DNA of 64,000 nucleotides from Planctomycetota bacterium (GTDB lineage: Bacteria; Planctomycetota; J058), in the NCBI GenBank assembly GCA_041402045.1, contig JAWKSZ010000023.1, positions 32,837 through 96,836 of the forward strand, in the 5' to 3' direction. Of this stretch, positions 7,581 through 46,255 are shown piece by piece (the first letter of the stretch is position 1; each line of letters begins with the position of its first letter). The notes beneath the pieces were generated by a model. That model was not told the DNA's origin, ran no database searches, and saw only the letters and a program-made list of their open reading frames with translations. Made by a program: the position numbers and the translations under genes.

Positions 7581-8948
7581 ATGGCCAAAGGTTCGGGCAA
7601 CGTCGCGTACGCCGTCGGGCTCATCTTCGCGATCCTCATCTCGCTGGCCCTCGTGTTCGTGGTCTATCGGACCAACGAGGAGCTCGCCAAGAAGGAGGAC
7701 CAGCTCAAGAAGGCGCTCAACGATCGCCGTGAGGCCGAGAGCACCATCGCGGCCCTCACCGTCGAGGCCGAGGACGTGCGGGAGCTGTTCTTCGGGCCCG
7801 GTCGTCGCGACGCGCCGATCGACAAGGCCTACGTGCAGCAGGTCGTGTTCACCCCGACCGCCGAGACCGTGAAGGAGATCATGGCCTCGGAGTGGATCGG
7901 CGACGAGGACATCAGCTCGATCTCCGACCCCGACGTGGAGAAGGCCTGGAAGGACCTCAAGGCGCTGACCGACGGCGGGCAGGTGACCTTCAAGGATCTC
8001 AAGACCGTGATCGAGGTCCAGCAGGCCCAGCTCCGCGCCGTCGTCGCGCTCCTGCCGCGCCTGCGCATGGACCGCACCGAGCAGCAGGGCAACGCGGCCA
8101 AGACCGCGGAGCGGCTCAAGGAAGAGATCGACAAGGCCAAGAACGACCAGAACGCGCTCTCCGACGAGCTGAACCGGGTCAAGGACGACCTGGTCACCAA
8201 GGACCGTGAGCTCGACCAGGTGCGCCGCGACTACGACGGCAAGCTCGAGGAAGAGCAGCGCACGATCCAGCGCATGACCCGCGACAACAAGATCAAAGAG
8301 AAGCGCATGGCGATCAAGCTCCAGGAGAAGGAGACCCGGATCGCCGAGCTCACCCGCAAGAAGCGCAAGACCAACGCCGACACCTGGAAGCGCGACGGCG
8401 AGGTGGTGTTCTCCGACACCGACCTCGGCTACGCCTGGGTGAACCTCGGCCGCCGTCACGGCCTGCGCCGCAACACGCGGTTCTTCGTCTACCAGCTCGA
8501 GAGCGGCGGGCGCCTGAAGGTCAAGGGCGTGGTCGAGGTGCGGGCGATCGAGGAGGACATGAGCCAGTGCGCGATCCTCGAGGACCAGAGCGTGACCAAC
8601 CCGGTGACCGGCGAGCGCGTGAACGTCCCCGACCGCAACGACCCGATCGTGCGCGGCGACCTGGTGTTCACCCCGACCTTCGATCCCCAGGCGCAGCTCC
8701 TGTTCACCTTCCTCGGTGAGCGCTCGAGCCCGACCAGCCCCTACGACAAGGCCGAGCTCCAGCAGAAGCTGATCGAGATCGGCGCCAAGATCGAGAACCA
8801 GATCTCGACCAAGACCGACTACGTGATCCTCCTCGGCGCCGACGACGAGGCGCGCGGGCAGGAGGTCGAGGCCGAGGCCGAGCGCGCCGCGCAATACGGC
8901 GTGACCTTCATGACCGAGAAGGAGCTGCTCGAGTTCCTCGGCAGATAG
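7581..8948 (+). CDS. membrane-anchored coiled-coil protein with C-terminal BRCT domain
   Basis: ATG at 7581 with AGGAG 7 nt upstream. N-terminal TM helix (VAYAVGLIFAILISLALVFVV), ~250 aa K/E-rich coiled coil, small beta domain, C-terminal BRCT signature (LLFTFLGERS...STKTDYVILLG...GVTFMTEKELLEFLG). Confidence 0.7.
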   Translation: MAKGSGNVAYAVGLIFAILISLALVFVVYRTNEELAKKEDQLKKALNDRREAESTIAALTVEAEDVRELFFGPGRRDAPIDKAYVQQVVFTPTAETVKEIMASEWIGDEDISSISDPDVEKAWKDLKALTDGGQVTFKDLKTVIEVQQAQLRAVVALLPRLRMDRTEQQGNAAKTAERLKEEIDKAKNDQNALSDELNRVKDDLVTKDRELDQVRRDYDGKLEEEQRTIQRMTRDNKIKEKRMAIKLQEKETRIAELTRKKRKTNADTWKRDGEVVFSDTDLGYAWVNLGRRHGLRRNTRFFVYQLESGGRLKVKGVVEVRAIEEDMSQCAILEDQSVTNPVTGERVNVPDRNDPIVRGDLVFTPTFDPQAQLLFTFLGERSSPTSPYDKAELQQKLIEIGAKIENQISTKTDYVILLGADDEARGQEVEAEAERAAQYGVTFMTEKELLEFLGR

Positions 8949-8971
8949 CCCTGCCGCACGACTCGCAGCCG

Positions 8972-8999
8972 AGAGGGCCCGCCGCCGCGCGGGCCCTCT
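8972..8999 (+). terminator. GC-rich hairpin downstream of the BRCT gene
   Basis: Perfect 11-bp inverted repeat agagggcccgc/gcgggccctct with 6-nt loop, 24 nt after the stop. No U-tract. Confidence 0.45.
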
Positions 9000-9089
9000 G
9001 CATGTACGGGCGGGTCCGCCCCTGCCTGCTCCCGCCTCTCTGACGGAGCGCTGCTAGCCGCTCGCGTGCCGACGCCTCAACGAGAGGAA

Positions 9090-9116
9090 CACGGAAGACA
9101 CGGAAGACACGGAAGT
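9090..9116 (+). repeat. 9-bp tandem repeat (cacggaaga x3) in tatC upstream region
   Basis: Direct reading of the sequence. Confidence 0.7.
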
Positions 9117-9346
9117 CCCGCGGTACGTACGCGTGCCCGGTCTACACACCCCACACGGAAGCTCCGCGCGACCCAACGCTTCCTCGAGGTCTAAGCGGAG
9201 AGAGGACCCGCCCGACGCCGCGGACGAGCGCGCTCGGACGCGGGCACGGGGCGCGACCCATAACCGCGCGGTGTCCATTCAGGCGAGGCCCTGTGTGCCC
9301 TCGCAGGGGGCTATACTCAGCGTTCTGAGGCCCGGGAGGGGACCCC

Positions 9347-31271: not shown

Positions 31272-32816
31272 TCAGGCGTCGTCGTCGAGGAGACCCGACG
31301 CGAAGTCCGAGCTGACCTCGGGCTCCGCAGCCACGGCCGCGGGGGCCTTCTTGGGCTGCGGCTTGGGCGCGGCCTTGGCCGGAGCCTTGGGCTTGGACTT
31401 GGCCTTGGGAGCCTCCTCCTCGAGCAGCCCGGCCGCGAAGTCGGTGTCGTCGCCGTCGGCGTCGCCCTCGTCGTCGCTGCGCTCGTTCTGCTCGACCGCG
31501 CCCTCGTCGCTGCGCTCGCCGCGACGGCGGCGACGGCGACGGCGACGCTTGGGCTCGTCGTCACCCTCCTCGACGCTGGCCTCGTCCGAGCCGTCGACGT
31601 TGGAGTCGAAGTAGTGGAGGGGATCCCCGCGCTCGGCGCGGGAGCCGCCGCCACGACGCCGGCGACGGCCGCCGCCGCTGGTCGAGGTCTTGAGCGTGCC
31701 CTGAATGATCTCGGTCATGCTCTCGATGTCGCGGTGCTCGTCGGCGTTGAACACGAGGTTCTCGCCGTCGCCCTCGTCGTCGCCTGCGTCCTCGGCGCCG
31801 TCGCGGTCCCGGCCGCGGCCCCGACGCCGACGGCGCCGACGACGCCCGCCCTCGCGGTCGTCGTCGTCGTCGCGATCGCGATCGCGGTCCCGGTCGCGGT
31901 CGCGCCCACGGCCGCCGCGCTCGCCGCGCTCGCGACCCTTGCCGCCGCGGGAGCTGCGCCCGCTGCGCTCACGGCCGCTGCTGCCGCTGCCGCCGGCGAT
32001 CTTCTTCAGCTCCTCGACCTCGTCCATGGCCTGCTCGATCAGGTTCAGCGAGACCTGCTCGCCGCCCTCGATCATGCCCATGAGCAGACCCAGGTCACCC
32101 AGGCGGTTCAGCAGCCGGGGGTAGCCCTCGGCCGCCTGCACGGCCGCGGTCAGGGCCTCGTCGCTCAGCACGTCGGCCTTGGCGCCGGCCTTCTCCAGGC
32201 GGTGCTTGAGGTAGGTGACCCCCTCCTCCGCGCTCAGAGGCAGCAGCTCGTAGCCGACCTCGAGGCGGTGGACCAGGCTGTGGCGCTTCTTGAGGGTCCC
32301 GCGCAGGCGCGGATGGCCGGTCAGCACGCAGGTCAGGAGGGTGGTGCCGTCGGTGGTGGTCAGGTCCAGGATCGTGCGCAGCTCCTCGAAGGTGCGCCCG
32401 TCCGGGAGGCAGTCGGCGTTGTCGATGATCAGCACCGGGTAGCGCGACTTGCTCAGCTTGGACTCGAGCAGCTTGCGCAGCGCGTAGGTCAACTCGGCGC
32501 GGGTGCCGGGCACGGGCTCGCCGTTGGAGAAGGCCACGAAGGCCTGCTGCAGGAGGTCGAGGCCGTGCTCGACGCCAGCGGCGGAGATCCAGGCGGTGTC
32601 GCAGCTGCGACCCTGGAGCTGCTCGGCCGCGCGACGGCAGACGAAGGTCTTGCCGACGCCGCTCTCGCCGATCAGGAGCGCGAGGGGCTTGCGCTGCTCG
32701 ACGGCATACTTGATCCGGACCAGGGCCTCTTTGTGGTTCTCGCTTTCGAAGAAGAAGGCGGTGTTTTGATCGTTCTCAAACGGTTTCTTGTCGAGGTGCC
32801 AGTGGGCTTCGTACAT
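31272..32816 (-). CDS. ExeA/GspA-like AAA+ ATPase with a long R/D/E-rich disordered C-terminal tail
   Basis: Walker A (LLIGESGVGKT) and Walker B (LIIDNADCL). Tail contains RDRDRDRDRDDDDD and poly-R runs. Confidence 0.8.
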   Translation of the reverse strand: MYEAHWHLDKKPFENDQNTAFFFESENHKEALVRIKYAVEQRKPLALLIGESGVGKTFVCRRAAEQLQGRSCDTAWISAAGVEHGLDLLQQAFVAFSNGEPVPGTRAELTYALRKLLESKLSKSRYPVLIIDNADCLPDGRTFEELRTILDLTTTDGTTLLTCVLTGHPRLRGTLKKRHSLVHRLEVGYELLPLSAEEGVTYLKHRLEKAGAKADVLSDEALTAAVQAAEGYPRLLNRLGDLGLLMGMIEGGEQVSLNLIEQAMDEVEELKKIAGGSGSSGRERSGRSSRGGKGRERGERGGRGRDRDRDRDRDRDDDDDREGGRRRRRRRRGRGRDRDGAEDAGDDEGDGENLVFNADEHRDIESMTEIIQGTLKTSTSGGGRRRRRGGGSRAERGDPLHYFDSNVDGSDEASVEEGDDEPKRRRRRRRRRGERSDEGAVEQNERSDDEGDADGDDTDFAAGLLEEEAPKAKSKPKAPAKAAPKPQPKKAPAAVAAEPEVSSDFASGLLDDDA

Positions 32817-33124: not shown

Positions 33125-35561
33125 TCAGCCGCCTCCGCGCAATTGGAGCAGCATTCGGCGCGCCGTGGGGTGCTTCGGGTCACGCCGCAGCGCCTCTCGG
33201 AGGGCGGCCAACGCCGGCTCCCGGCGCCCCGCGGCGGCGTGCAGCCGCGCCGCGTAGGTCAGCGCCAGGACCTCCTCGGGGTCCGCCGCGGTCGCGCGGT
33301 CCCAGGCCTCGAGCGCGCCCTCAGGGTCCCCCGCGCGCTCCAGGGCCACGCCCAGGTCGCGCCAGTTGGCGCCGTCGGGGGCCAGCGCGACCAAGCGCCG
33401 GTAGGCCTCCACCGCGGGACCGTAGGCCTCGGCCAGGAAGCGCACCTCCCCCAGCCGAGCCCAAGCGGCCGCGAGGGCAGGGTCGGCCTCCGTGCTCGCC
33501 AGGAGCCAGCGCTCGGCGGTGGGGTAGTCGGCCTCGAGCCGGGCTGCGTTGCCGCGGTAGAAGCTGGCCAGGGCTGGCTCGAGCGCGGGGCCAAAGCGCG
33601 CCACCGCCCGACGCAGGGCGACCGGGTCCTCGGCGGCCTCGGCGGCTGCGAGGAGGTTCACCCGCGCGCGCAGCGCGGTCTCGGGGTCGGGGTCCCGGTC
33701 CAGGGCCGCGCCGTAGGCGACGAGGGCCGCGCGAGCTTCGCCGCGGCCCATGGCCAACGCCGCCAGCAGGAGGTGCCTCGCGCGCGCTGAGCGCGGTCGC
33801 GACCCAGCGTGACGCCAGCTCCTGGGCGCGCTGGGGGTCGCCGAACAGGCGCTCGAGCTCCGCCGCCGCCTCGAGCACGACGGGGTCCTCGGGGGCGAGG
33901 GCCAGCGCGCCGCGGGCCAGCTCCAGGCCCCGGGCGCCTTCGCCCAGGGCCGGCAGCGCGCGGGCGAGGTGCAGGCGCAGGCGCGGGTGGATCCCGCGCC
34001 GCGGGAGCAGGGTCAGCCCGCGCAGGACCGAGCTCGCCCGAGCCTCGTCGGGGAACGGCGGCTCGCGGCGCCGCGGCGGCGAAGACCGGGGACCGCGCTC
34101 GAAGACCCAGGCCTTGGGCCCCACGTAGCGCACGCTCCAGACCGGGTCGGCGACCAGGGCCTCCAGCAGGAGCGGGGAGTGCTCACGGGGATCGAGGAGC
34201 GCGCTCTGGAACCCTGCCTCGCTCAGGCGCGCGCCGAGCGCGCGCGGGTCTCCGTCGAGCAGCGCGCGGTAGGCCGCGAAGTGCGACCGGGGGTAGAGGT
34301 CGAGGTTGCCGCATATGTAAGGGCGCTGACCGGCGAACAGCAGGTAGTGCCCGGCGCTGAACCCGTTGAACAGGGGCTCCGGGGGCGGGTCGCGCTCCCA
34401 GTCGGCCAGGGCCTCGGGGTAGGCCTTGAACTCCACGCGGCCCCAGCCGGCGGGAGCGTCGAGCTGCGGGTTCTGGTGGAAGCGGTCGTCGACGGTGGCG
34501 CGCGCGAGGAGGAAGGCGAGGCCGCCCAGGGCCACGTAGGCGGGATCGCGGCGCGCGCCGCGCAGCAGCCCACGCGCGAGCAGCGCGAGCCCGGGGCCGC
34601 TGAGCGTGATCAGCCCCAGGGCGGCCAGCGGCAGGGTGCGCGCGTAGGGCGCGCCGAGGACCACCAGCGCCAGCGCCGCGCCAGCGCGGTCCAGCTCCAG
34701 CCGACCGGAGCGCCAGCCGATCCAGGCCAGGGGCAGGCTCAGAACGCACCAGCCCACGAGGAGCAACACCAGCGGCTGCCCCCAGCCCGCGCTCCAGGGC
34801 GCCGCGAGCTCGGCGATCGGCAGGCGCTCGCGCCCCAGCGCGTCCAGCGCGATCCGGGGGAGGTAGCCCAGGGTGCCCAAGGGGTAGGGAGTCAGCGCGC
34901 AGCAGCCGAGGAGCACCCCCGCGGCCACGGCCCAGCCACGCCAGGCGCGCCCGCCGAGGGCCGCGACGGCCGCGCGCAGCCCGAGCAGCGCCGGCCCGAG
35001 CAGCGCGAACCCGTGGGCGTTGGCCCACAGCACCTGCACCGCCGCGGCGGCGCCCAGCCGCCGGCCCGCGGGAGCACGACGCCAGCCGAGGTGCCAGGCG
35101 AGGACGAGGAAGGTCACGAGCTCGGGGCGGACCACGAAGCGTGGACCCGCGAGGACCACGAACGGGATCGCGAGCGCCCAGCGCGCCAGCCCAGGGATCG
35201 GCCGCAGCACGAGCCAGGACAGGAGCAGGACGGCGAGGCCCTTGGCCGCGCCCAGGAGCCGCGCCCCGCCCAGCGCGTCCAGCGCGGCCACGGCGAGCTG
35301 GAACAGCCACTCGGGGTCTACGAAGGCGCGCTCGGCCCCGCCCTGGAGGAAGACGTCGTGGCGGGGGAAGCCGTGCTCGAGGATCCAGCGCGCGCAGGCC
35401 AGGTGGAAGTAGAGGTCGGGTTGGGCGTCGGGCCGGGCGCACCAGGCGACGAGCAGGAGCGCGACCGCCGCCAGGCAGAATCCCCGGGCCGCGCGTGAGG
35501 GCCAGCCACGGACTCCGTCCAAGGAAGGTGAGCGGGGAGGAGCCTCGGCCGACGAAGTCAC
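33125..35561 (-). CDS. GT-C-like polytopic membrane protein with C-terminal TPR domain; reading frame switches near 33760-33790
   Basis: The 35561-33770 frame encodes >10 TM helices and then begins TPR-like helices (…QRAQELASRWVATALSARE). The TPR domain continues in the +1 frame (33757-33125, …AMGRGEARAALVAYGAALDRDP…). GTG at 35561 is a guess. Confidence 0.5.
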
Positions 35562-35852
35562 GCGACGGATTGTGCACTGGATGCGGCCCCGCCGGTATCC
35601 CGGACTGGGGACGCCCGCGACCTCCAACCAGGCCAGCGCGCGGTGACGCGCCCGGGGGTGCGCCCGAGGGGCGTTGGCCCCGACCCGCCTTCCTGAGAAA
35701 CTTTCTCCGGAGTCGAGCTGGCAGGGGGTTGCGTCGTACGGGGGCCGGCTCGGACCGGCCCGGCGCGCGGGCTCGGCCGGCCCTCCCATCTCGGGGCCGC
35801 CTCGGACCGGCTCCGCGGCGACGGAATCCCTTACGCCTCGGGTTCGCTCCGC

Positions 35853-35968: not shown

Positions 35969-37063
35969 ATGGGCTTGTGGGCGAACTTCAAGGCGAATCG
36001 CGAGCTGGCCGAAGCCAGGCGGGACGTGGCACGCGCGCGCTCGCCGTACTCGATCGCTCAGTTCATCGACAAATGCATCGAGCTCGGTCGGCTCGATCAG
36101 GCCTTCGAGGACGCCGAGAAAGGGATCCAGGAGTTCCCCGAGTCGGAGTCGCTGCAGGAGGCCTACAAGCGCATGATCCGCGCCAAGTGCGCGGACGACC
36201 TCAAGGCCTACCGCGACGAGATCCGCACCTCCCCCGGCCCGAAGGCGTATTACCGGCTCGCGTGCCTCTACAAGGAAATGCGCGACCTGGACCAGGCCGT
36301 CGAGCTCGCGCGCAAGGGCATGGAGGACTACCCCAACTTCGAGGGCAACTACATCGTGCTCGCGGACCTGCGCTACGAGCGCTTCCAGCGTGACCTGCGC
36401 GCGTCCGACGGGCTCGAGGCGACCCAACTGTTCGAGAAGGCGGTGGACCTCAACGGCGAGAACTACCGCCTGCTGTTCCAGTTGGCCGAGATCTACCGCG
36501 CGATCGGGGCGCGCGACCACGCGATCGCCAAGGTCAAGATGATCTTGAACTTCGCCCCCGACGACCGCAACGCGCTGAACCTGCTGGCCCAGCTCAAGAG
36601 CGCCAAGGCCCCCAAGAGCAACGACCTCAAGGAGATCCTCCAGGACTTCGAGCGTCGGGCCGCGGCAGGCAACTTCCGCCAGCAGGGCCAGCTCTCGGCG
36701 CGTTACCTGGCCAACCCCGACCAGCTCGAGCGCAAGCTGCCGAGCCTGGACCGCATGCCGGGCTTCCAGCGCGTGGTCGTGCTCGGTCCCCACGGCGAGC
36801 TGTTGGCCGCCCACCCCGGCGGCGCTCAGGGCAACCGCAACGAGGCGGACACGCTGAAGAAGATGTTCGCGGCGGCGATCGATTGCTCGCTGCGCATGGA
36901 CATCTCCACCTTCGAGAAGGGCTTGTTCGAGTCCGAGGCTGGGTTTACCTACCTGGTCGTCGCCGACTCCTTGCAAATCGCCGTGCTCTCGAACACGAAG
37001 GTGAAGAAGGAAAAACTACGACAGGACGTGCACCGCTTTGTGGAGCACGACCTCTACATCTAG
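35969..37063 (+). CDS. TPR-repeat protein with C-terminal Roadblock/LC7-like domain
   Basis: 364 aa. N-terminal TPR-like helices. C-terminal ~110 aa (GFQRVVVLGPHGELLAAH...FTYLVVADSLQIAVLSN) fit the Roadblock pattern. Confidence 0.7.
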   Translation: MGLWANFKANRELAEARRDVARARSPYSIAQFIDKCIELGRLDQAFEDAEKGIQEFPESESLQEAYKRMIRAKCADDLKAYRDEIRTSPGPKAYYRLACLYKEMRDLDQAVELARKGMEDYPNFEGNYIVLADLRYERFQRDLRASDGLEATQLFEKAVDLNGENYRLLFQLAEIYRAIGARDHAIAKVKMILNFAPDDRNALNLLAQLKSAKAPKSNDLKEILQDFERRAAAGNFRQQGQLSARYLANPDQLERKLPSLDRMPGFQRVVVLGPHGELLAAHPGGAQGNRNEADTLKKMFAAAIDCSLRMDISTFEKGLFESEAGFTYLVVADSLQIAVLSNTKVKKEKLRQDVHRFVEHDLYI

Positions 37064-37093: not shown

Positions 37094-37444
37094 ATGCAAT
37101 CCATTCTCTCTGCACTGAATCAGGTCGCTGGCGTCAAGGGCAGCATGGTCGTCACCAAGGACGGTGTGGTGGTGGCCGAGGTCCTCGGTCCCGACCTGCG
37201 CAAAGAGGTGGTGGCCGCCGTCTCCTCCCACATGATTCAGGTCAGCGCCCGCTCGCTTGAGGACCTCGGCCGAGGTACCCTGGAGCGCGTGGCCGTGACC
37301 TCTGCCCACGGACGCATGGTGTTCGTGAACCTGGACGTGGGCTACCTGGTCGTGATCACCAAGATGGAGATGAAGCTCGGGCAAGTGCTCATCGAAGTCG
37401 AATCGGCTGCGCGGAAGATCAAGCAGCTACACAGCAGGATCTGA
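37094..37444 (+). CDS. Roadblock/LC7-domain protein (short MglB-like)
   Basis: 116 aa. GVKGSMVVTKDGVVVAEV...GYLVVITKM pattern. Confidence 0.8.
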   Translation: MQSILSALNQVAGVKGSMVVTKDGVVVAEVLGPDLRKEVVAAVSSHMIQVSARSLEDLGRGTLERVAVTSAHGRMVFVNLDVGYLVVITKMEMKLGQVLIEVESAARKIKQLHSRI

Positions 37445-37535: not shown

Positions 37536-38579
37536 ATGGTCCAGATCAACTTCGCCAAGCGCGAAATCAACTGCAAGCTCGTGTACTACGGGCCGGGGTT
37601 GTCGGGGAAGACCACCAACCTCGAGGTCGTGCACAAGAAGGCACCGGCCTCGAAGAAGGGTGAGCTGACCTCGATCGCCACCGAGGGCGATCGCACCCTG
37701 TTCTTCGACTACATGCCGCTCGAGCTGGGCAAGGTCGGCGGCATGAACACGAAGTTCCAGTTGTACACGGTGCCGGGCCAGGTCTACTACAACGCCACCC
37801 GTAAGCTCGTGCTCCAGGGCGCGGACGGGGTGGTGTTCGTCGCGGACTCCCAGCCCGACAAGATGGACGAGAACATCGAGAGCTTCCAGAACCTGGAGGA
37901 GAACCTGAGGGAGCAGGGCCTGCAGCCCGAGACGATCCCCATGGTCCTGCAGTGGAACAAGCGCGACTTGCCCAACGTCTGCGACGTCAGCGAGCTCGAC
38001 AAGAAGCTCAACAAGTACAACAGCCCGACCTTCGAGGCCGTCGCGGTCACCGGCGAGGGGGTGTTCCCCACCCTCAAGAAGCTGGCGCAGATGGTGCTCG
38101 AGAAGCTCAACAAGGAGTACGGGCTCAACCCCGACAAGAAGGGCGAGGCGGGCAAGAAGGAGACCGCGGCGGCGCCGGCGGCCAAGCCGGAGCCGAAGCC
38201 GGAGCCCAAGCCCGAGCCCAAGCCCGAGCGTCGCCCGGAGCCGAAGCCCGAGCCCGTCGCCGAGCGGCGAGCGGAGCCGAAGCCGGAGCGGCGGGCGGAG
38301 CCGAAGCCCGAGCGGCGCGAGCCTGCGCCGCTGCCCAGCGGCAACCGCAAGCCTCAGGGCTACGACATCGGGAGCGGCGCGCTGCCGCCTCCGCCCAAGA
38401 AGGGCGGCGGCAAGGGCCTGATGATCGTGATGCTCCTGATCCTGGTGGTGGCCGGGGCGTTCATCGGCGGCGGCTATACGGGTAAGCTGGAGCAGGCGGT
38501 GCCTGCGCTCCAGAAGTTCTACGACGACAAGCTCGCACCCACCCTCGGCGGCGGCTCCCAGAGCGCCGGCGGGGAGTAG
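37536..38579 (+). CDS. MglA-family small GTPase with C-terminal PEPK-repeat linker and transmembrane helix
   Basis: First ~195 aa align closely to MglA (GPGLSGKTT, TDRTLFFDY, TVPGQ, NKRD, AVTGEGV). Followed by (PEPK)n/ERRAEPKP repeats, then LMIVMLLILVVAGAFIGGGY and a short tail. Confidence 0.9.
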   Translation: MVQINFAKREINCKLVYYGPGLSGKTTNLEVVHKKAPASKKGELTSIATEGDRTLFFDYMPLELGKVGGMNTKFQLYTVPGQVYYNATRKLVLQGADGVVFVADSQPDKMDENIESFQNLEENLREQGLQPETIPMVLQWNKRDLPNVCDVSELDKKLNKYNSPTFEAVAVTGEGVFPTLKKLAQMVLEKLNKEYGLNPDKKGEAGKKETAAAPAAKPEPKPEPKPEPKPERRPEPKPEPVAERRAEPKPERRAEPKPERREPAPLPSGNRKPQGYDIGSGALPPPPKKGGGKGLMIVMLLILVVAGAFIGGGYTGKLEQAVPALQKFYDDKLAPTLGGGSQSAGGE

Positions 38580-38621: not shown

Positions 38622-39137
38622 ATGGGCGCGAGTGAGACCGATCGCAAGCTGCGTAAGGCTCGCCTCATCTTCTATGAAGACGACGTCGAGCGGATCAACA
38701 AGGCGCTGGAGAACTACCAGAACCTCTCCAAGTCGCGCTGCAACATGCTGATCGACGTCGAGGGGCACCCGGTCACCCAGGTCGGATCCACCGAGGGCAT
38801 CAACCTCGAGACCATCGCCGCCCTGGTGGCGGCGTCCTTCGCCGCCACCAAGGAGGTGGCGAAGATCCTGGGCGAGGCCGAGTTCAGCAGCCTGACCCAC
38901 CAGGGCAAGCACGAGAGCATTCAGCTCTCGCTGGTAGGCGACCGCACGATCCTGGCCACGATCTTCGACTCCGAGGAGACGACGATCGGCATGGTCATGT
39001 TCTACACCAAGGAGTTGGTGGAGAAGCTGGCCGGGATCTTCGCCGAGATCGGCAACCGCAAGGACATGAAGCAGGGCGTGTTCGAACCCATGGAAGACAT
39101 GGAGAGCGTGATCGACGACCTGTTCGGCGACGTCTAG
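38622..39137 (+). CDS. mglB: MglB-like Roadblock GTPase-activating protein
   Basis: 171 aa. Collinear with MglB, including the acidic C-terminal helix (EPMEDMESVIDDLFGDV). RBS GGAAGAGGA. Confidence 0.85.
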   Translation: MGASETDRKLRKARLIFYEDDVERINKALENYQNLSKSRCNMLIDVEGHPVTQVGSTEGINLETIAALVAASFAATKEVAKILGEAEFSSLTHQGKHESIQLSLVGDRTILATIFDSEETTIGMVMFYTKELVEKLAGIFAEIGNRKDMKQGVFEPMEDMESVIDDLFGDV

Positions 39138-39191: not shown

Positions 39192-39980
39192 ATGTACGGG
39201 GCCGCCGGAACCTGGACAAACGAAGCGGGGTCCGGCACCCTGAGCCCCATGGACGAACCCGCCGCTCACGGTCGCCAGCGCCTCAAGGGCGCCTTCCTCG
39301 CCGCCGCTGCGGTGAGCCTGCTCCTGAACCTCGTGCCCTTCGGGCGCTACGCGCTCTACCCCTTCGGGCTCCTGGCCACCTGGGCCCACGAAATGGGACA
39401 CGGACTCTCCGCGCTCTGCCTCGGGGGCGAGTTCCGTCAGCTCGTGCTGTTCTCGAACCTCGGCGGCTACGCGACCCACACCGCCACGGGCTTCCTGCGC
39501 TCGCCCCTGGTCGCCATGGGCGGACTCCTGGGGCCCGCGGTCGCCGGCGCGGCGGTGATCGTGTGCAGCGCGCGCTCCGAGCGCGCGGCCCGGCTGACCC
39601 TGGGCCTGGTCGTGGGCGCGATCGCGCTCTCGGTGCTGGTGTGGATCCGGCCGCTGTTCGGCTTCGGCTTCGTGGGCATGCTCCTGATCGCGGTCGCCCT
39701 GGGCGCGGTCGCGCTCAGGGGGCACGAGCTCCTGGAGCTGTTCATGACCCAGTTGATCGGGATCCAGCTCTGCCTGGGGAGCCTCAGCAGCTTCGACTAC
39801 ATGTTCACCCGCGACTTCATGCGGGACGGTCAGCGGCTGGAGTCGGACACCCAGGCGATCGCCAACCACTGGCTGCTGCCCTACTGGCTGTGGGGGGCCC
39901 TGATCGCCGCCGCCTCGCTGGCGATCCTGTTGGGCGCCTTCTACCTGGCCTGGGTCCGCCCCGAGCGCAAGCGCGCCTGA
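39192..39980 (+). CDS. polytopic membrane protein with HExxH motif (putative intramembrane zinc metalloprotease)
   Basis: 262 aa. TWAHEMGHGLSA inside a hydrophobic segment, ~6 TM helices. An alternative ATG at 39249. Confidence 0.65.
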   Translation: MYGAAGTWTNEAGSGTLSPMDEPAAHGRQRLKGAFLAAAAVSLLLNLVPFGRYALYPFGLLATWAHEMGHGLSALCLGGEFRQLVLFSNLGGYATHTATGFLRSPLVAMGGLLGPAVAGAAVIVCSARSERAARLTLGLVVGAIALSVLVWIRPLFGFGFVGMLLIAVALGAVALRGHELLELFMTQLIGIQLCLGSLSSFDYMFTRDFMRDGQRLESDTQAIANHWLLPYWLWGALIAAASLAILLGAFYLAWVRPERKRA

Positions 39981-39989
39981 GCGCCGGAG

Positions 39990-40286
39990 CTACTCCTCGA
40001 CGAAGTCGCCGGTGTGGTCGGCGGTGCCCAGCTCCGCGTTGAAGGCCGCCACGAGCTTGGCGAGGGCCTCCTGCTGGTCGACCTTGTGGGCGTGGCGCAG
40101 GGCCCGGGCGATGTGCTGGGCCACGTCGGCCAGGAGCGTGCCCCAGGCCGCCTCGGCGTCCTGTCCGGGGCCCCACTGGCCCACGTCGAAGCTGCAGTGC
40201 AGGCGGCGCTCCGCGATGAACGCGCAGAGCATCTCCCGCGAGTGGGGGTCGGAGATCGCGGGGGCGGGCACGGTCAGGCGCTTCAT
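39990..40286 (-). CDS. hypothetical small protein
   Basis: 98-aa ORF downstream of, and co-directional with, the ALDH gene. Called on composition only. Confidence 0.4.
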   Translation of the reverse strand: MKRLTVPAPAISDPHSREMLCAFIAERRLHCSFDVGQWGPGQDAEAAWGTLLADVAQHIARALRHAHKVDQQEALAKLVAAFNAELGTADHTGDFVEE

Positions 40287-46177: not shown

Positions 46178-46250
46178 GCAGCCATAGCTCAGTTGGTTAG
46201 AGCGCCTGATTGTGGATCAGGAGGTCGCCGGTTCGAATCCAGCTGGCTGT
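46178..46250 (+). tRNA. tRNA-His (anticodon GTG), atypical acceptor end
   Basis: Manual cloverleaf: acceptor GCAGCCA/TGGCTGT (G1-U72), D arm GCTC/GAGC, anticodon stem CCTGA/TCAGG with loop TTGTGGA, T arm GCCGG-TTCGAAT-CCAGC (one C-A mismatch). Discriminator A73. Base -1 is C. No encoded CCA. Confidence 0.75.
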
Positions 46251-46255
46251 ATGCG

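What the first reader, a model, noticed from the sequence alone, without database searches (positions are those of the whole stretch)
38150..38579. MglA-family GTPase carries a PEPK-repeat linker and C-terminal transmembrane helix
After the G5 motif the protein continues for ~150 aa, where M. xanthus MglA ends. This extension has imperfect 12-18-bp DNA repeats encoding (PEPK)n and ERRAEPKP, then LMIVMLLILVVAGAFIGGGY. A tail-anchored MglA-like GTPase is not a described architecture to my knowledge.
Basis: seen in the sequence. Interest (0 to 1): 0.6.

Follow-up and report, generated by a model that had tools for sequence, protein, structure and literature searches.

The report
Membrane-anchored MglA GTPase switch of Planctomycetota
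This gene encodes a bacterial Ras-like switch protein (MglA type) attached to the cell membrane by a long flexible proline-rich tether and one C-terminal membrane helix, a layout conserved in hundreds of Planctomycetota relatives, absent from the papers I could search, and similar in design to membrane-anchored Ras/Rab proteins of eukaryotes.

Summary
One continuous ORF (37536-38579, +, 347 aa) encodes three parts. The first is an intact MglA-family G domain (aa 1-196). The second is a 96-aa Pro/Lys/Glu/Arg-rich disordered linker built from 12/36-nt tandem repeats. The third is a single strongly hydrophobic helix (aa 293-314) followed by a 33-aa tail.

It is not a frameshift or an assembly artefact. 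Two independent assemblies give the same protein. Of 233 homologue cluster representatives, 224 have the same G domain - variable linker - C-terminal TM layout; all named ones are Planctomycetota MAGs.

The gene sits in a conserved cassette: TPR-Roadblock fusion, Roadblock, long MglA, MglB. A PATAN-domain gene often precedes the cassette elsewhere, but not in this window.

Sister lineages (Zixibacteria, Ignavibacteria, Fibrobacterota) carry the same cassette. There the linker ends in a MinD-like amphipathic membrane-targeting sequence (KKRGFFKRLFGIK; 119 of 120 homologues) instead of a TM helix. Membrane tethering is therefore the conserved purpose of the extension.

The main survey of prokaryotic small GTPases excluded proteins longer than 240 aa and lists no Planctomycetes. 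I found no description of this architecture.

Verdict: a real, new variant of a known kind. The output function is unknown; cell polarity or pilus control is my inference.

The parts
35969..37063 (+). TPR-Roadblock fusion protein (364 aa): N-terminal TPR repeats and a C-terminal Roadblock/LC7 domain of about 115 aa. First gene of the conserved cassette.
   Evidence: Pfam TPR hits. hhalign of the C-terminal 135 aa from 22 orthologues against the small Roadblock family gives probability 99.3%, E 1.4e-20. An orthologue sits in the same position in L003-L015, L017, L020, L026, L028, L031, L032 and L085. The start at 35969 is placed from the codon-position GC switch and the MGLWANF start.
37094..37444 (+). 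Small Roadblock/LC7 protein (116 aa), second gene of the cassette.
   Evidence: Pfam Robl_LC7 5.6e-11. The nearest solved structure is a generic Roadblock protein, 7yh1_D, E 2.4e-11. It is conserved immediately upstream of the long MglA in Planctomycetota and sister phyla.
37536..38579 (+). Whole gene for the membrane-anchored MglA-family GTPase (347 aa plus stop).
   Evidence: Single ORF. The frame is supported by GC3 throughout. The identical protein occurs in two other assemblies. The architecture is conserved in homologues.
37536..38123 (+). G domain (aa 1-196), MglA type, with all catalytic motifs intact: G19-PGLSGKTT, R53-T54, T78-VPGQ82, N141-KRD.
   Evidence: PDB 5ymx E 8e-73. Foldseek 6h17 TM-score 0.94, 59% identity. 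Invariant columns in A1. Identity to family members is 65-97%.
38124..38411 (+). Disordered Pro/Lys/Glu/Arg/Ala-rich linker (aa 197-292; net charge about +8 over aa 197-294; contour length about 30-35 nm). It ends in the basic KKGGGKG patch that flanks the membrane helix (its last two residues fall in the helix).
   Evidence: Composition. No secondary structure and block-mean pLDDT of 43-65 in the AF2 model. Only 15-61% identical to relatives, with length varying from 72 to 253 aa in the family. The only Pfam hit is a compositional sub-threshold match to Trypan_PARP.
38184..38313 (+). Tandem DNA repeat array inside the linker (period 12, 10.8 copies; nested period 36, 2.5 copies) encoding (PEPK)n and ERRAEPKP units.
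   Evidence: TRF scores 93 and 119. Direct-repeat family D1 with 12-nt spacing. Same length in two independent assemblies.
38412..38477 (+). Single transmembrane helix (aa 293-314, GLMIVMLLILVVAGAFIGGGY core). Predicted N-in/C-out, so the G domain faces the cytoplasm.
   Evidence: KD 2.63 and Hessa dG -3.75. 1 of 2000 shuffles reach this score, and no other hydrophobic segment exists. AF2 helix at 293-314. An equivalent helix is present in 224 of 233 homologue clusters. Mean K+R is 2.79 in the 12 aa before the helix versus 0.67 after it.
38478..38576 (+). Tail of 33 aa after the helix, predicted extracytoplasmic, with a clade-specific conserved motif (GKL..P.LQxxYDxxLxPxLGGG). AF2 predicts a short helix at 318-333.
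   Evidence: The motif is shared by P0001-P0019 and is 76% identical in P0001. AF2 helix. It is absent from most of the family, where the median tail is 7 aa.
38622..39137 (+). MglB homologue (171 aa, Roadblock fold with C-terminal extension). Presumed GAP of the GTPase and last gene of the cassette.
   Evidence: NCBIfam NF052242 (MglB) 8e-22, below that model's curated cut-off. Pfam Robl_LC7. PDB M. xanthus MglB 6izw_B E 9e-21 over residues 14-169. Always immediately downstream of the long MglA.

Best explanation
**What it is.** The gene encodes an MglA-family Ras-like molecular switch that is permanently tethered to the cytoplasmic membrane. The catalytically intact G domain stays in the cytoplasm. 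A fast-evolving, proline- and charge-rich disordered spacer of 96 aa follows; in this genome it was generated by expansion of 12/36-nt repeats and could reach up to about 30 nm. The spacer links the G domain to a single C-terminal transmembrane helix (N-in/C-out).

**Cassette.** The gene belongs to a conserved four-gene cassette: TPR-Roadblock fusion, small Roadblock protein, long MglA, MglB. The cassette defines a 'long MglA' subfamily distinct from the soluble Myxococcus-type MglA, which has the order mglB then mglA and is about 195 aa.

**Anchor swap.** In Zixibacteria, Ignavibacteria and Fibrobacterota, and probably in one Brocadiia MAG, the linker ends in a MinD-type amphipathic membrane-targeting sequence. 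In the remaining Planctomycetota that peripheral anchor has been replaced by an integral TM helix. The extension therefore serves to place the switch on the membrane.

**How it likely works (inferred).** The GTP/GDP cycle runs in two dimensions on the inner face of the membrane. MglB acts as the GAP. The two other Roadblock domains act as scaffold, regulator or effector platform.

**Output (inferred by analogy only).** Spatial control of a membrane-associated machine, such as cell polarity or type IV pili.

**Shown:** architecture, conservation, cassette, anchor swap. **Inferred:** topology, GAP role, output.
For: **Continuous ORF.**
- In-frame codon bias throughout.
- Identical protein in two other assemblies.

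**MglA identity and intact catalytic residues**.

**TM helix.**
- KD 2.63, dG -3.75, reached by 1 of 2000 shuffles, and a single hydrophobic segment.
- AF2 predicts a folded G domain, an unstructured 199-292 stretch and a helix at 293-314.

**Family conservation.**
- 224 of 233 homologue clusters have the C-terminal TM helix. Two are borderline and 7 are short proteins (216-258 aa) that look truncated.
- 11 of 12 complete Planctomycetota loci among GTDB representatives have it.
- 60 of the best 150 clusters at 50% identity have it.
- Positive-inside bias: K+R 2.79 before the helix versus 0.67 after.

**Spacer behaviour.** G domain 65-97% identical, linker 15-61%, linker length 72-253 aa.

**Cassette conservation**. 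The third Roadblock domain lies in the TPR protein. The MglB homologue is confirmed.

**Anchor swap.**
- Sister-phylum long MglAs sit in the same cassette and end in K-rich + GFFKRLFG.
- 119 of 120 homologues of the Zixibacteria protein end this way and have no TM helix.
- The motif matches the E. coli MinD MTS KGFLKRLFGG (PMC5471200).

**Tree.** A neighbour-joining tree of G domains groups the TM and MTS forms apart from short MglAs, including M. xanthus MglA.
Against: - No experimental localisation exists, and no dedicated TM predictor (TMHMM or DeepTMHMM) was available.
- The topology rests on the positive-inside rule, the absence of a signal peptide, and the need of a GTPase for cytosolic nucleotide.
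- The tree is a quick distance tree without support values.
- The window lacks the PATAN gene that precedes the cassette in many relatives. No neighbouring gene points to the output.
- This protein has a 33-aa conserved tail beyond the helix, which most relatives lack. In this clade the C-terminus may therefore do more than anchor.
- All named homologues come from MAGs. I could not show presence in a cultured strain.
Confidence: 0.82

Rival explanations
1. Transmembrane signalling variant. In this clade the helix plus the conserved 33-aa outer tail is not only an anchor. It forms a small sensing or partner-binding module that couples something in the periplasm or within the membrane to the GTPase.
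For: - The post-helix tail carries a conserved motif (GKL..P.LQxxYDxxLxPxLGGG) across P0001-P0019, although the linker is free to vary.
- AF2 predicts a helix at 318-333.
- The outer half of the TM helix is enriched in Ala/Gly across the family (52-68% at positions 12-15 of the 19-mer). That pattern is typical of helix-helix packing.
Against: - 181 of 224 TM-type relatives have 10 residues or fewer after the helix, so sensing cannot be the general role of the extension.
- A 96-aa disordered linker is a poor conduit for conformational signalling.
- The sister families use a peripheral amphipathic anchor with no outer part at all.
Confidence: 0.12
2. Artefact. The extension comes from a frameshift, a collapsed or expanded repeat, or a fusion of two ORFs, and the real protein is an ordinary MglA of about 195 aa.
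For: The region is a high-GC tandem repeat, where assembly and frame errors are plausible. High-GC DNA also produces long spurious ORFs.
Against: - GC3 stays at 0.93-0.97 in this frame through the linker and the TM+tail.
- The same 347-aa protein is found in two independent assemblies.
- More than 220 homologue clusters have the same three-part layout, with linkers that are different and not repeat-based.
- The 130-nt array is shorter than a typical 150-nt short read (my assumption about read length; the reads were not examined).
Confidence: 0.02
3. C-terminal sorting signal. The hydrophobic helix is a cleavable PEP-CTERM-, GlyGly-CTERM- or sortase-type signal on an exported protein, not a stable anchor.
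For: - Planctomycetota carry many proteins with C-terminal helix-type sorting signals (general knowledge).
- In most relatives the helix lies within 10 residues of the C-terminus.
Against: - There is no N-terminal signal peptide. The P-loop starts at residue 19, and the best 10-mer KD in the first 30 residues is 0.56.
- There is no PEP, GlyGly or LPXTG motif before the helix.
- No sorting-signal HMM matches even at E up to 10.
- A GTPase needs cytosolic GTP.
- The basic residues lie before the helix, not after it as in those signals.
Confidence: 0.02

Closest known systems
MglA/MglB polarity module of Myxococcus xanthus and Thermus thermophilus (Group 1 MglA; PDB 5ymx, 6h17, 6izw, 3t12)
   Same: - The G domain is about 59% identical, with TM-score 0.94.
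- It has the TVPGQ motif, the intrinsic Arg finger and the catalytic Gln.
- An adjacent MglB Roadblock GAP homologue is present.
   Different: - Canonical MglA is a soluble single-domain protein of about 195 aa that cycles between cytoplasm and pole. Its gene order is mglB then mglA.
- Here the protein is 347 aa with a linker and a TM anchor.
- mglB lies downstream, and two further Roadblock domains and a TPR domain are encoded upstream.
'Long MglA' with a MinD-like C-terminal amphipathic helix (Zixibacteria, Ignavibacteria, Fibrobacterota).
   Same: - Same cassette (PATAN, TPR-Roadblock, Roadblock, MglA, MglB).
- Same long low-complexity linker.
- G domains group together in the tree.
   Different: The anchor is a peripheral, potentially reversible amphipathic helix (KKRGFFKRLFGIK) rather than an integral TM helix.
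Eukaryotic Ras/Rho/Rab GTPases: hypervariable C-terminal region plus lipid anchor
   Same: - Design logic: conserved G domain, fast-evolving flexible C-terminal spacer, membrane anchor at the extreme C-terminus.
- The switch acts on the membrane surface.
   Different: - The anchor is a peptide helix, not a prenyl or palmitoyl group. There is no CAAX box and no GDI or escort cycle.
- The linker is 2-3 times longer.
- The origin is independent (MglA clade).
[quoted passage not shown]
Eukaryotic GTPases with peptide TM anchors: SR-beta (N-terminal TM) and Miro (C-terminal tail anchor). From general knowledge.
   Same: A Ras-superfamily G domain held on a membrane by a single TM helix. JGI even auto-annotates many family members as 'signal recognition particle receptor subunit beta'.
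   Different: There is no specific sequence relationship. SR-beta is anchored at its N-terminus and pairs with SR-alpha. Miro has two GTPase domains and EF hands. The JGI annotation is a domain-level mislabel.
Rag GTPases with Ragulator (LAMTOR Roadblock scaffold on the lysosome). From general knowledge and PMC3747258.
   Same: A membrane-localised small GTPase working with several Roadblock-domain proteins. This cassette encodes three Roadblock domains.
   Different: - In Rag/Ragulator the scaffold carries the lipid anchor and the GTPase carries its own Roadblock domain.
- Here the GTPase itself is anchored and has no Roadblock domain.
- No orthology was shown.
Streptomyces/Mycobacterium conservons (CvnA-D; Group 2 MglA)
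   Same: An MglA-family GTPase with a Roadblock partner acting at the membrane.
   Different: - Conserons reach the membrane through the CvnA histidine kinase and include a DUF742 protein. Neither is present here.
- The G domain here is Group 1-like (TVPGQ, Arg finger).
TonB-type (Glu-Pro)n/(Lys-Pro)n spacers. From general knowledge.
   Same: Repetitive Pro-Glu/Pro-Lys sequence acting as an extended spacer next to a single TM helix.
   Different: - The TonB spacer is periplasmic and follows an N-terminal anchor.
- Here the spacer is cytoplasmic and precedes a C-terminal anchor.
- The resemblance is compositional only.

Membership tests
MglA family (Group 1) of Ras-superfamily GTPases | G3 motif TVPGQ (Thr in place of the usual Asp) with the catalytic Gln | tested here: met
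   T78-V-P-G-Q82 is present and invariant in the 21-sequence alignment A1. The motif definition is taken from PMC4316618.
MglA family (Group 1) of Ras-superfamily GTPases | Intrinsic arginine finger next to the switch-I threonine | tested here: met
   D52-R53-T54 is invariant in A1 and aligns with DRTLFFD of M. xanthus MglA.
MglA family (Group 1) of Ras-superfamily GTPases | Sequence and fold similarity to solved MglA structures | tested here: met
   phmmer E 8e-73 to 5ymx. Foldseek TM-score 0.94, rmsd 1.7 A to 6h17.
MglA family (Group 1) of Ras-superfamily GTPases | Genomic coupling to an mglB (Roadblock) gene | tested here: met
   The MglB homologue at 38622-39137 matches 6izw_B at E 9e-21. 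Its position is downstream, not upstream as in short MglAs.
MglA family (Group 1) of Ras-superfamily GTPases | Single-domain small protein (150-240 aa, the working definition in PMC4316618) | tested here: not met
   The protein is 347 aa with a linker and a TM helix. The survey's length filter would have excluded it. It is an MglA-family G domain in a non-canonical architecture.
Tail-anchored membrane proteins | One TM segment near the C-terminus (commonly within about 30-50 residues) and no other TM segment or signal peptide | tested here: met
   The helix spans 293-314 of 347. The next best hydrophobic window scores 0.74, and the N-terminus is not hydrophobic. With 33 residues after the helix this protein lies at the long end. 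Relatives have a median of 7.
Tail-anchored membrane proteins | N-terminal functional domain in the cytoplasm | tested here: inconclusive
   This is supported only indirectly: by the positive-inside bias (KKGGGKG before the helix; family mean K+R 2.79 versus 0.67) and by the nucleotide requirement of a GTPase. There is no experimental topology.
Tail-anchored membrane proteins | Post-translational insertion | not testable with these tools
   Requires biochemical assays.
MinD-type C-terminal amphipathic membrane-targeting sequence | Short basic/aromatic amphipathic helix at the extreme C-terminus (E. coli MinD KGFLKRLFGG) | tested here: not met
   The window protein ends in ...GGGSQSAGGE and has a TM helix instead. 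The feature is met in the sister subfamily, where 119 of 120 proteins end in KKRGFFKRLFGIK-like motifs. The MinD sequence is taken from PMC5471200.
C-terminal protein-sorting signals (PEP-CTERM, GlyGly-CTERM, LPXTG) | N-terminal signal peptide, a signature motif before the helix, and a basic cluster after it | tested here: not met
   There is no signal peptide and no such motif. No NCBIfam sorting-signal model hits at E up to 10. The basic residues precede the helix.
Actinobacterial conservon (CvnA-D) | Adjacent CvnA histidine kinase and CvnC (DUF742) genes | tested here: not met
   The neighbours are TPR-Roadblock, Roadblock, MglB and an M50B peptidase. No kinase or DUF742 gene is present.

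The most novel reading that the evidence does not exclude
A large bacterial subfamily of Ras-like switches independently evolved the design of eukaryotic Ras/Rab proteins: a G domain, a hypervariable flexible tail and a membrane anchor. The anchor is a TM helix in most Planctomycetota and a MinD-like amphipathic helix in Zixibacteria, Ignavibacteria and Fibrobacterota. The switch works on the membrane with a three-Roadblock-domain platform reminiscent of Ragulator. In Planctomycetota, which have elaborate membrane invaginations and polar budding, this could be a dedicated membrane-identity or polarity switch. It would be the first intrinsically membrane-anchored small GTPase system described in bacteria.
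Probability: 0.35. Interest if true: 0.8.

Novelty: new variant of a known kind. Interest (0 to 1): 0.62.

Why it matters
**Current view.** In the papers I read, bacterial small Ras-like GTPases (MglA, SofG, CvnD) are treated as small single-domain proteins that reach their sites by binding partners. One recent paper suggests that the Rab-type C-terminal extension used for membrane insertion arose during eukaryogenesis (PMC10933270).

**What this finding adds.** A widespread bacterial MglA subfamily has its own membrane anchor on a long flexible tail. There are at least 60 TM-type clusters at 50% identity among the best 150 representatives, plus a sister group with a MinD-like helix.

**Questions it raises.**
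- Why does permanent membrane attachment matter, compared with the reversible attachment of the sister group?
- How does a switch confined to two dimensions establish polarity?
- What do the extra Roadblock domains do?

**Link to Planctomycetota.** The finding points to a candidate regulator of membrane or polarity organisation in a phylum whose cell biology is still poorly understood.

**Practical point.** The family is currently mislabelled in databases, for example as 'signal recognition particle receptor subunit beta'. The standard classification of prokaryotic small GTPases misses it because of a length cut-off.

Tried and rejected
- **Myxococcota origin.** My first guess from the high GC and MglA was wrong. 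All named close homologues are Planctomycetota MAGs.
- **Frameshift or ORF fusion.** Rejected on codon bias, independent assemblies and family conservation.
- **Sorting-signal reading.** Rejected.
- **Pfam Trypan_PARP hit on the linker.** Compositional EP repeats, 31 bits against a cut-off of 100, not homology.
- **PATAN gene in the window.** Not found anywhere in the 64 kb, although it precedes the cassette in many relatives.
- **Promoter and terminator scan of the cassette.** Uninformative: no promoter-like sites, and the terminator-like sites were on the minus strand only and no more frequent than in shuffles.
- **Rfam scan.** Only one tRNA, so no rRNA to place the organism.
- **Hydrophobic-moment calculation on the MTS-type tails.** Values (0.37-0.58) were similar to MinD (0.45) but not clearly above the linker maxima. 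The argument therefore rests on the near-identical sequence motif, not on the moment.
- **Cultured planctomycete carrying the gene.** Not identified.
- **Literature.** Nine full-text searches found no description of a TM-anchored or MTS-anchored MglA. The Cavalier-Smith paper that matched 'Ras-like GTPase' has no relevant passage in the part held.
Full report
**1. The observation**

The window contains one uninterrupted ORF at 37536-38579 on the + strand, 347 codons plus stop. Third-codon-position GC is 0.97 in the part encoding residues 1-196, 0.95 in residues 197-294 and 0.93 in residues 295-347. The window average GC is 0.72. The whole ORF is therefore coding in a single frame.

Residues 1-196 match M. 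xanthus MglA with E 8e-73 (PDB 5ymx) and T. thermophilus MglA with E 7e-67.

Tandem Repeats Finder reports a 12-nt period array of 10.8 copies at 38184-38313 and a nested 36-nt period array of 2.5 copies. An independent repeat search finds the same 12-nt spacing. The repeats encode (PEPK)n and ERRAEPKP units.

Evidence on the hydrophobic stretch LMIVMLLILVVAGAFIGGG:
- Its Kyte-Doolittle 19-mer mean is 2.63, and its summed biological-scale dG is -3.75 kcal/mol.
- It is the only hydrophobic segment; the next best window scores 0.74.
- Only 1 of 2000 shuffles of the protein reaches its score.
- AlphaFold2, run with a 21-sequence family alignment, gives a folded G domain (1-195), no secondary structure and block-mean pLDDT of 43-65 for the linker (residues 199-292), a 22-residue helix at 293-314 and a short helix at 318-333.
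- Foldseek matches only the G domain, with TM-score 0.94 to 6h17.

Two independent Logan assemblies of different sequencing runs encode the identical 347-aa protein. They differ from the window by one mismatch over 1573 and 1402 nt, and that mismatch does not change the protein. The repeat region is therefore reproducibly assembled.

The one correction is that 33 residues follow the helix.

**2. It is a family, not an oddity**

A search of 5.8 billion proteins with the full protein returned long proteins of 290-452 aa. A second search, with a distant Planctomycetia member, returned more. Results for the 233 cluster representatives:
- 224 carry a 19-mer with KD of at least 1.6 near the C-terminus. 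Two are borderline (1.52-1.58). Seven are short proteins (216-258 aa) that look truncated; three of them are labelled 'partial'.
- The tail after the helix has a median of 7 residues, and is 10 or fewer in 181 of 224.
- The linker has a median of 114 residues (range 72-253).
- Lys+Arg average 2.79 in the 12 residues before the helix and 0.67 after it. This is the positive-inside signature of an N-in orientation.
- Every homologue that carries an organism name is a Planctomycetota MAG, apart from one Neolewinella-labelled MAG record whose near-identical neighbour is labelled Planctomycetota.

Across the family the G domain is 65-97% identical to the window protein, the linker 15-61% and the helix 9-77%. 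This is the pattern of a spacer plus anchor that is constrained in composition rather than in sequence.

In an exhaustive HMMER scan of 1.84 billion cluster representatives, 2362 clusters match at E of 1e-30 or better. The best 150 are all at least 244 aa, and 60 of them have a C-terminal TM helix.

**3. Genomic context**

In the window the gene is flanked, co-directionally and with 30-91-nt gaps, by:
- a 364-aa TPR protein (35969-37063);
- a 116-aa Roadblock/LC7 protein (37094-37444);
- a 171-aa MglB homologue (38622-39137).

Profile-profile comparison shows that the C-terminal 115 residues or so of the TPR protein are themselves a Roadblock domain (probability 99.3%, E 1.4e-20). The cassette therefore encodes three Roadblock domains.

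The same order (TPR-Roadblock, Roadblock, long MglA, MglB) recurs in L003-L009, L011-L013 and L015, in the truncated loci L010 and L014 as far as they extend, and on a 4.3-Mb contig (L085). It is often preceded by a large PATAN-domain protein. No PATAN homologue is present anywhere in this 64-kb window.

Short MglAs of 190-209 aa, including those from Myxococcota, show the classical mglB-then-mglA order instead.

**4. The sister group explains the extension**

The genome scan also retrieved long MglAs of 290-645 aa from Zixibacteria, Ignavibacteria and Fibrobacterota/Chitinivibrionales. They lie in the same cassette (PATAN, TPR, Roadblock, MglA, MglB).

These proteins have no TM helix. Their Pro/Ala/Gln-rich linkers end in a basic-aromatic motif, for example ...NKPGFLKRLFGNK or ...KKRGFFKRLFGLK. 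A search with the Zixibacteria protein showed that 119 of the 120 best homologues end in KKRGFFKRLFGIK-like sequences and none has a TM helix. This is essentially the membrane-targeting sequence of E. coli MinD, KGFLKRLFGG (PMC5471200).

One Brocadiia MAG, from a class of Planctomycetota, has a long MglA ending in ...KPLFKKFKKFLDEKNKG and no TM helix.

In a neighbour-joining tree of G domains, the TM-type and MTS-type proteins group together, apart from the short MglAs including that of M. xanthus. This is a rough tree with no support values.

The simplest reading is that the long MglA subfamily is defined by membrane tethering through a flexible tail, and that most Planctomycetota replaced a peripheral amphipathic anchor with an integral helix.

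**5. Mechanism**

Shown:
- An intact MglA catalytic core: P-loop, Arg53-Thr54, Thr78-Val-Pro-Gly-Gln82 and NKRD, all invariant in alignment A1.
- A disordered spacer with a contour length of about 30-35 nm.
- A single C-terminal TM helix.
- An adjacent MglB homologue, similar to M. xanthus MglB over nearly its full length.

Inferred:
- The G domain is cytoplasmic.
- The switch diffuses in the plane of the membrane rather than cycling on and off it.
- MglB acts as the GAP.
- The TPR-Roadblock and Roadblock proteins form a platform, regulator or effector.

The output is unknown. MglA controls polarity and type IV pili in Myxococcus. PATAN-domain proteins are known neighbours of Group 1 and Group 5 MglA genes (PMC4316618). 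By these analogies, spatial control of a membrane-associated machine is my best guess, but it remains a guess.

In the window's own clade, the 33-aa tail after the helix carries a conserved motif (GKL..P.LQxxYDxxLxPxLGGG). Across the family the outer half of the helix is rich in Ala/Gly. These two features leave room for partner binding in or beyond the membrane.

**6. Rivals**

- Artefact or frameshift: excluded by the evidence in sections 1 and 2.
- Cleavable sorting signal: excluded. There is no signal peptide and no signature motif, no sorting-signal HMM matches even at E of 10, and the basic residues lie on the wrong side of the helix.
- A transmembrane sensing role for this clade's tail: possible as an addition (about 0.12). 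It cannot be the general function, because most relatives have almost no tail.

**7. Comparison with what is known, and novelty**

The G domain is a member of the MglA family by every catalytic and structural criterion tested. The protein fails the 'small single-domain' criterion.

The reference survey of prokaryotic Ras-superfamily GTPases (PMC4316618) excluded sequences longer than 240 aa. It does not list Planctomycetes among the MglA-bearing phyla, and no planctomycete names occur in its supplementary files held as text.

Nine full-text searches found no description of an MglA with a TM helix or an amphipathic anchor. Public annotations call these proteins 'GTPase domain-containing protein', 'MglA' or, wrongly, 'signal recognition particle receptor subunit beta'.

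In design, the closest analogues are eukaryotic Ras/Rab proteins, which have a hypervariable region plus a lipid anchor, and the TM-anchored GTPases SR-beta and Miro. [quoted passage not shown]

I rate this a new variant of a known kind. It is real, widespread and apparently undescribed, but it is built from known parts.

**8. Limits**

- No dedicated TM predictor, no reads and no experimental data were available.
- Only open-access literature could be searched.
- The genome scan was truncated at 600 candidates. The taxonomic limits of the TM type, and its presence in cultured strains, are therefore not established.
- The tree is a distance tree without support values.

**9. Scores**

- Interest: 0.62.
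- Confidence that this is a membrane-tethered MglA switch: 0.82.
- The broader reading, an independently evolved Ras/Rab-like membrane switch system with a Roadblock platform that is relevant to planctomycete membrane or polarity biology: probability about 0.35, interest 0.8 if true.

Noticed in passing
L017, L020, L022, L024, L026, L028, L029, L031, L032 and L045 (the MglA gene in each starts near 8001 or as listed); P0234-P0353: Long MglA proteins of Zixibacteria, Ignavibacteria and Fibrobacterota end in a near-invariant KKRGFFKRLFGIK motif. It is almost the same as the E. coli MinD membrane-targeting sequence, and it follows a long disordered linker. 119 of 120 homologues have it. I found no published description.
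   Followed up: yes
window 36700-37063 (C-terminal ~115 aa of the TPR protein encoded at 35969-37063): The TPR protein upstream of the cassette ends in a Roadblock/LC7 domain that Pfam does not detect (hhalign probability 99.3%). The cassette therefore encodes three Roadblock domains around one GTPase.
   Followed up: yes
window 38478-38576; P0001-P0019: A conserved motif after the helix (GKL..P.LQxxYDxxLxPxLGGG) is found only in the window's close clade. It is often followed by Gly/Asp/Gln-rich low-complexity tails of variable length, and is presumably extracytoplasmic. Its function is unknown.
   Followed up: partly
TM helices of 282 family members (window 38412-38477 and homologues): The helix is asymmetric. 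The inner half is rich in Leu/Val/Ile. The outer half is rich in Ala/Gly (52-68% small residues at positions 12-15 of the 19-mer). This may be a helix-packing motif, which would suggest self-association or a membrane partner.
   Followed up: partly
L013 (Candidatus Brocadiia MAG), gene at 8001-9209: This Planctomycetota-class member has a 403-aa long MglA in the same cassette. It has a Gln/Pro/Met-rich linker ((PQM)n repeats) and an amphipathic-looking end (KPLFKKFKKFLDEKNKG) instead of a TM helix. It may retain the ancestral anchor type.
   Followed up: partly
L041, L043, L044, L048, L084 (Thermoanaerobaculia/Acidobacteriota); L047, L060: These are a third kind of long MglA (380-480 aa) with an acidic linker. 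The Thermoanaerobaculia/Acidobacteriota proteins read (L041, L043, L084) share a conserved C-terminal strand-like motif (...RRLRLKITLDVNLLP). No adjacent MglB or cassette was detected. They are unrelated to the TM and MTS types.
   Followed up: no
window 33125-35789, minus strand: A multi-pass membrane protein with C-terminal TPR-like repeats and no Pfam hit appears to change reading frame near 33750. The codon-position GC pattern switches from the 33321-35789 frame to the 33125-33757 frame. This is either a frameshift or assembly error, or two overlapping genes.
   Followed up: partly
window 39192-39980 (+) and 39990-40286 (-): A Peptidase_M50B-like membrane protein lies directly downstream of mglB on the same strand, followed by a DUF5076 gene on the opposite strand. 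Neither accompanies the cassette in the other loci whose downstream genes were listed (L003/L004, L085), and no M50B homologue was detected in any fetched locus. They are probably not part of the system.
   Followed up: partly
window 31272-32816 (-): An AAA_22/AAA_16 ATPase gene lies upstream of the cassette region. Any relation to the cassette is unknown.
   Followed up: no
window 46178-46251 (+): This single tRNA gene is the only Rfam match in the 64-kb window.
   Followed up: no
database annotations of P0003, P0005, P0012 and many others: JGI automatically names many members of this family 'signal recognition particle receptor subunit beta'. The label appears to be a domain-level mislabel that hides the family.
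   Followed up: no
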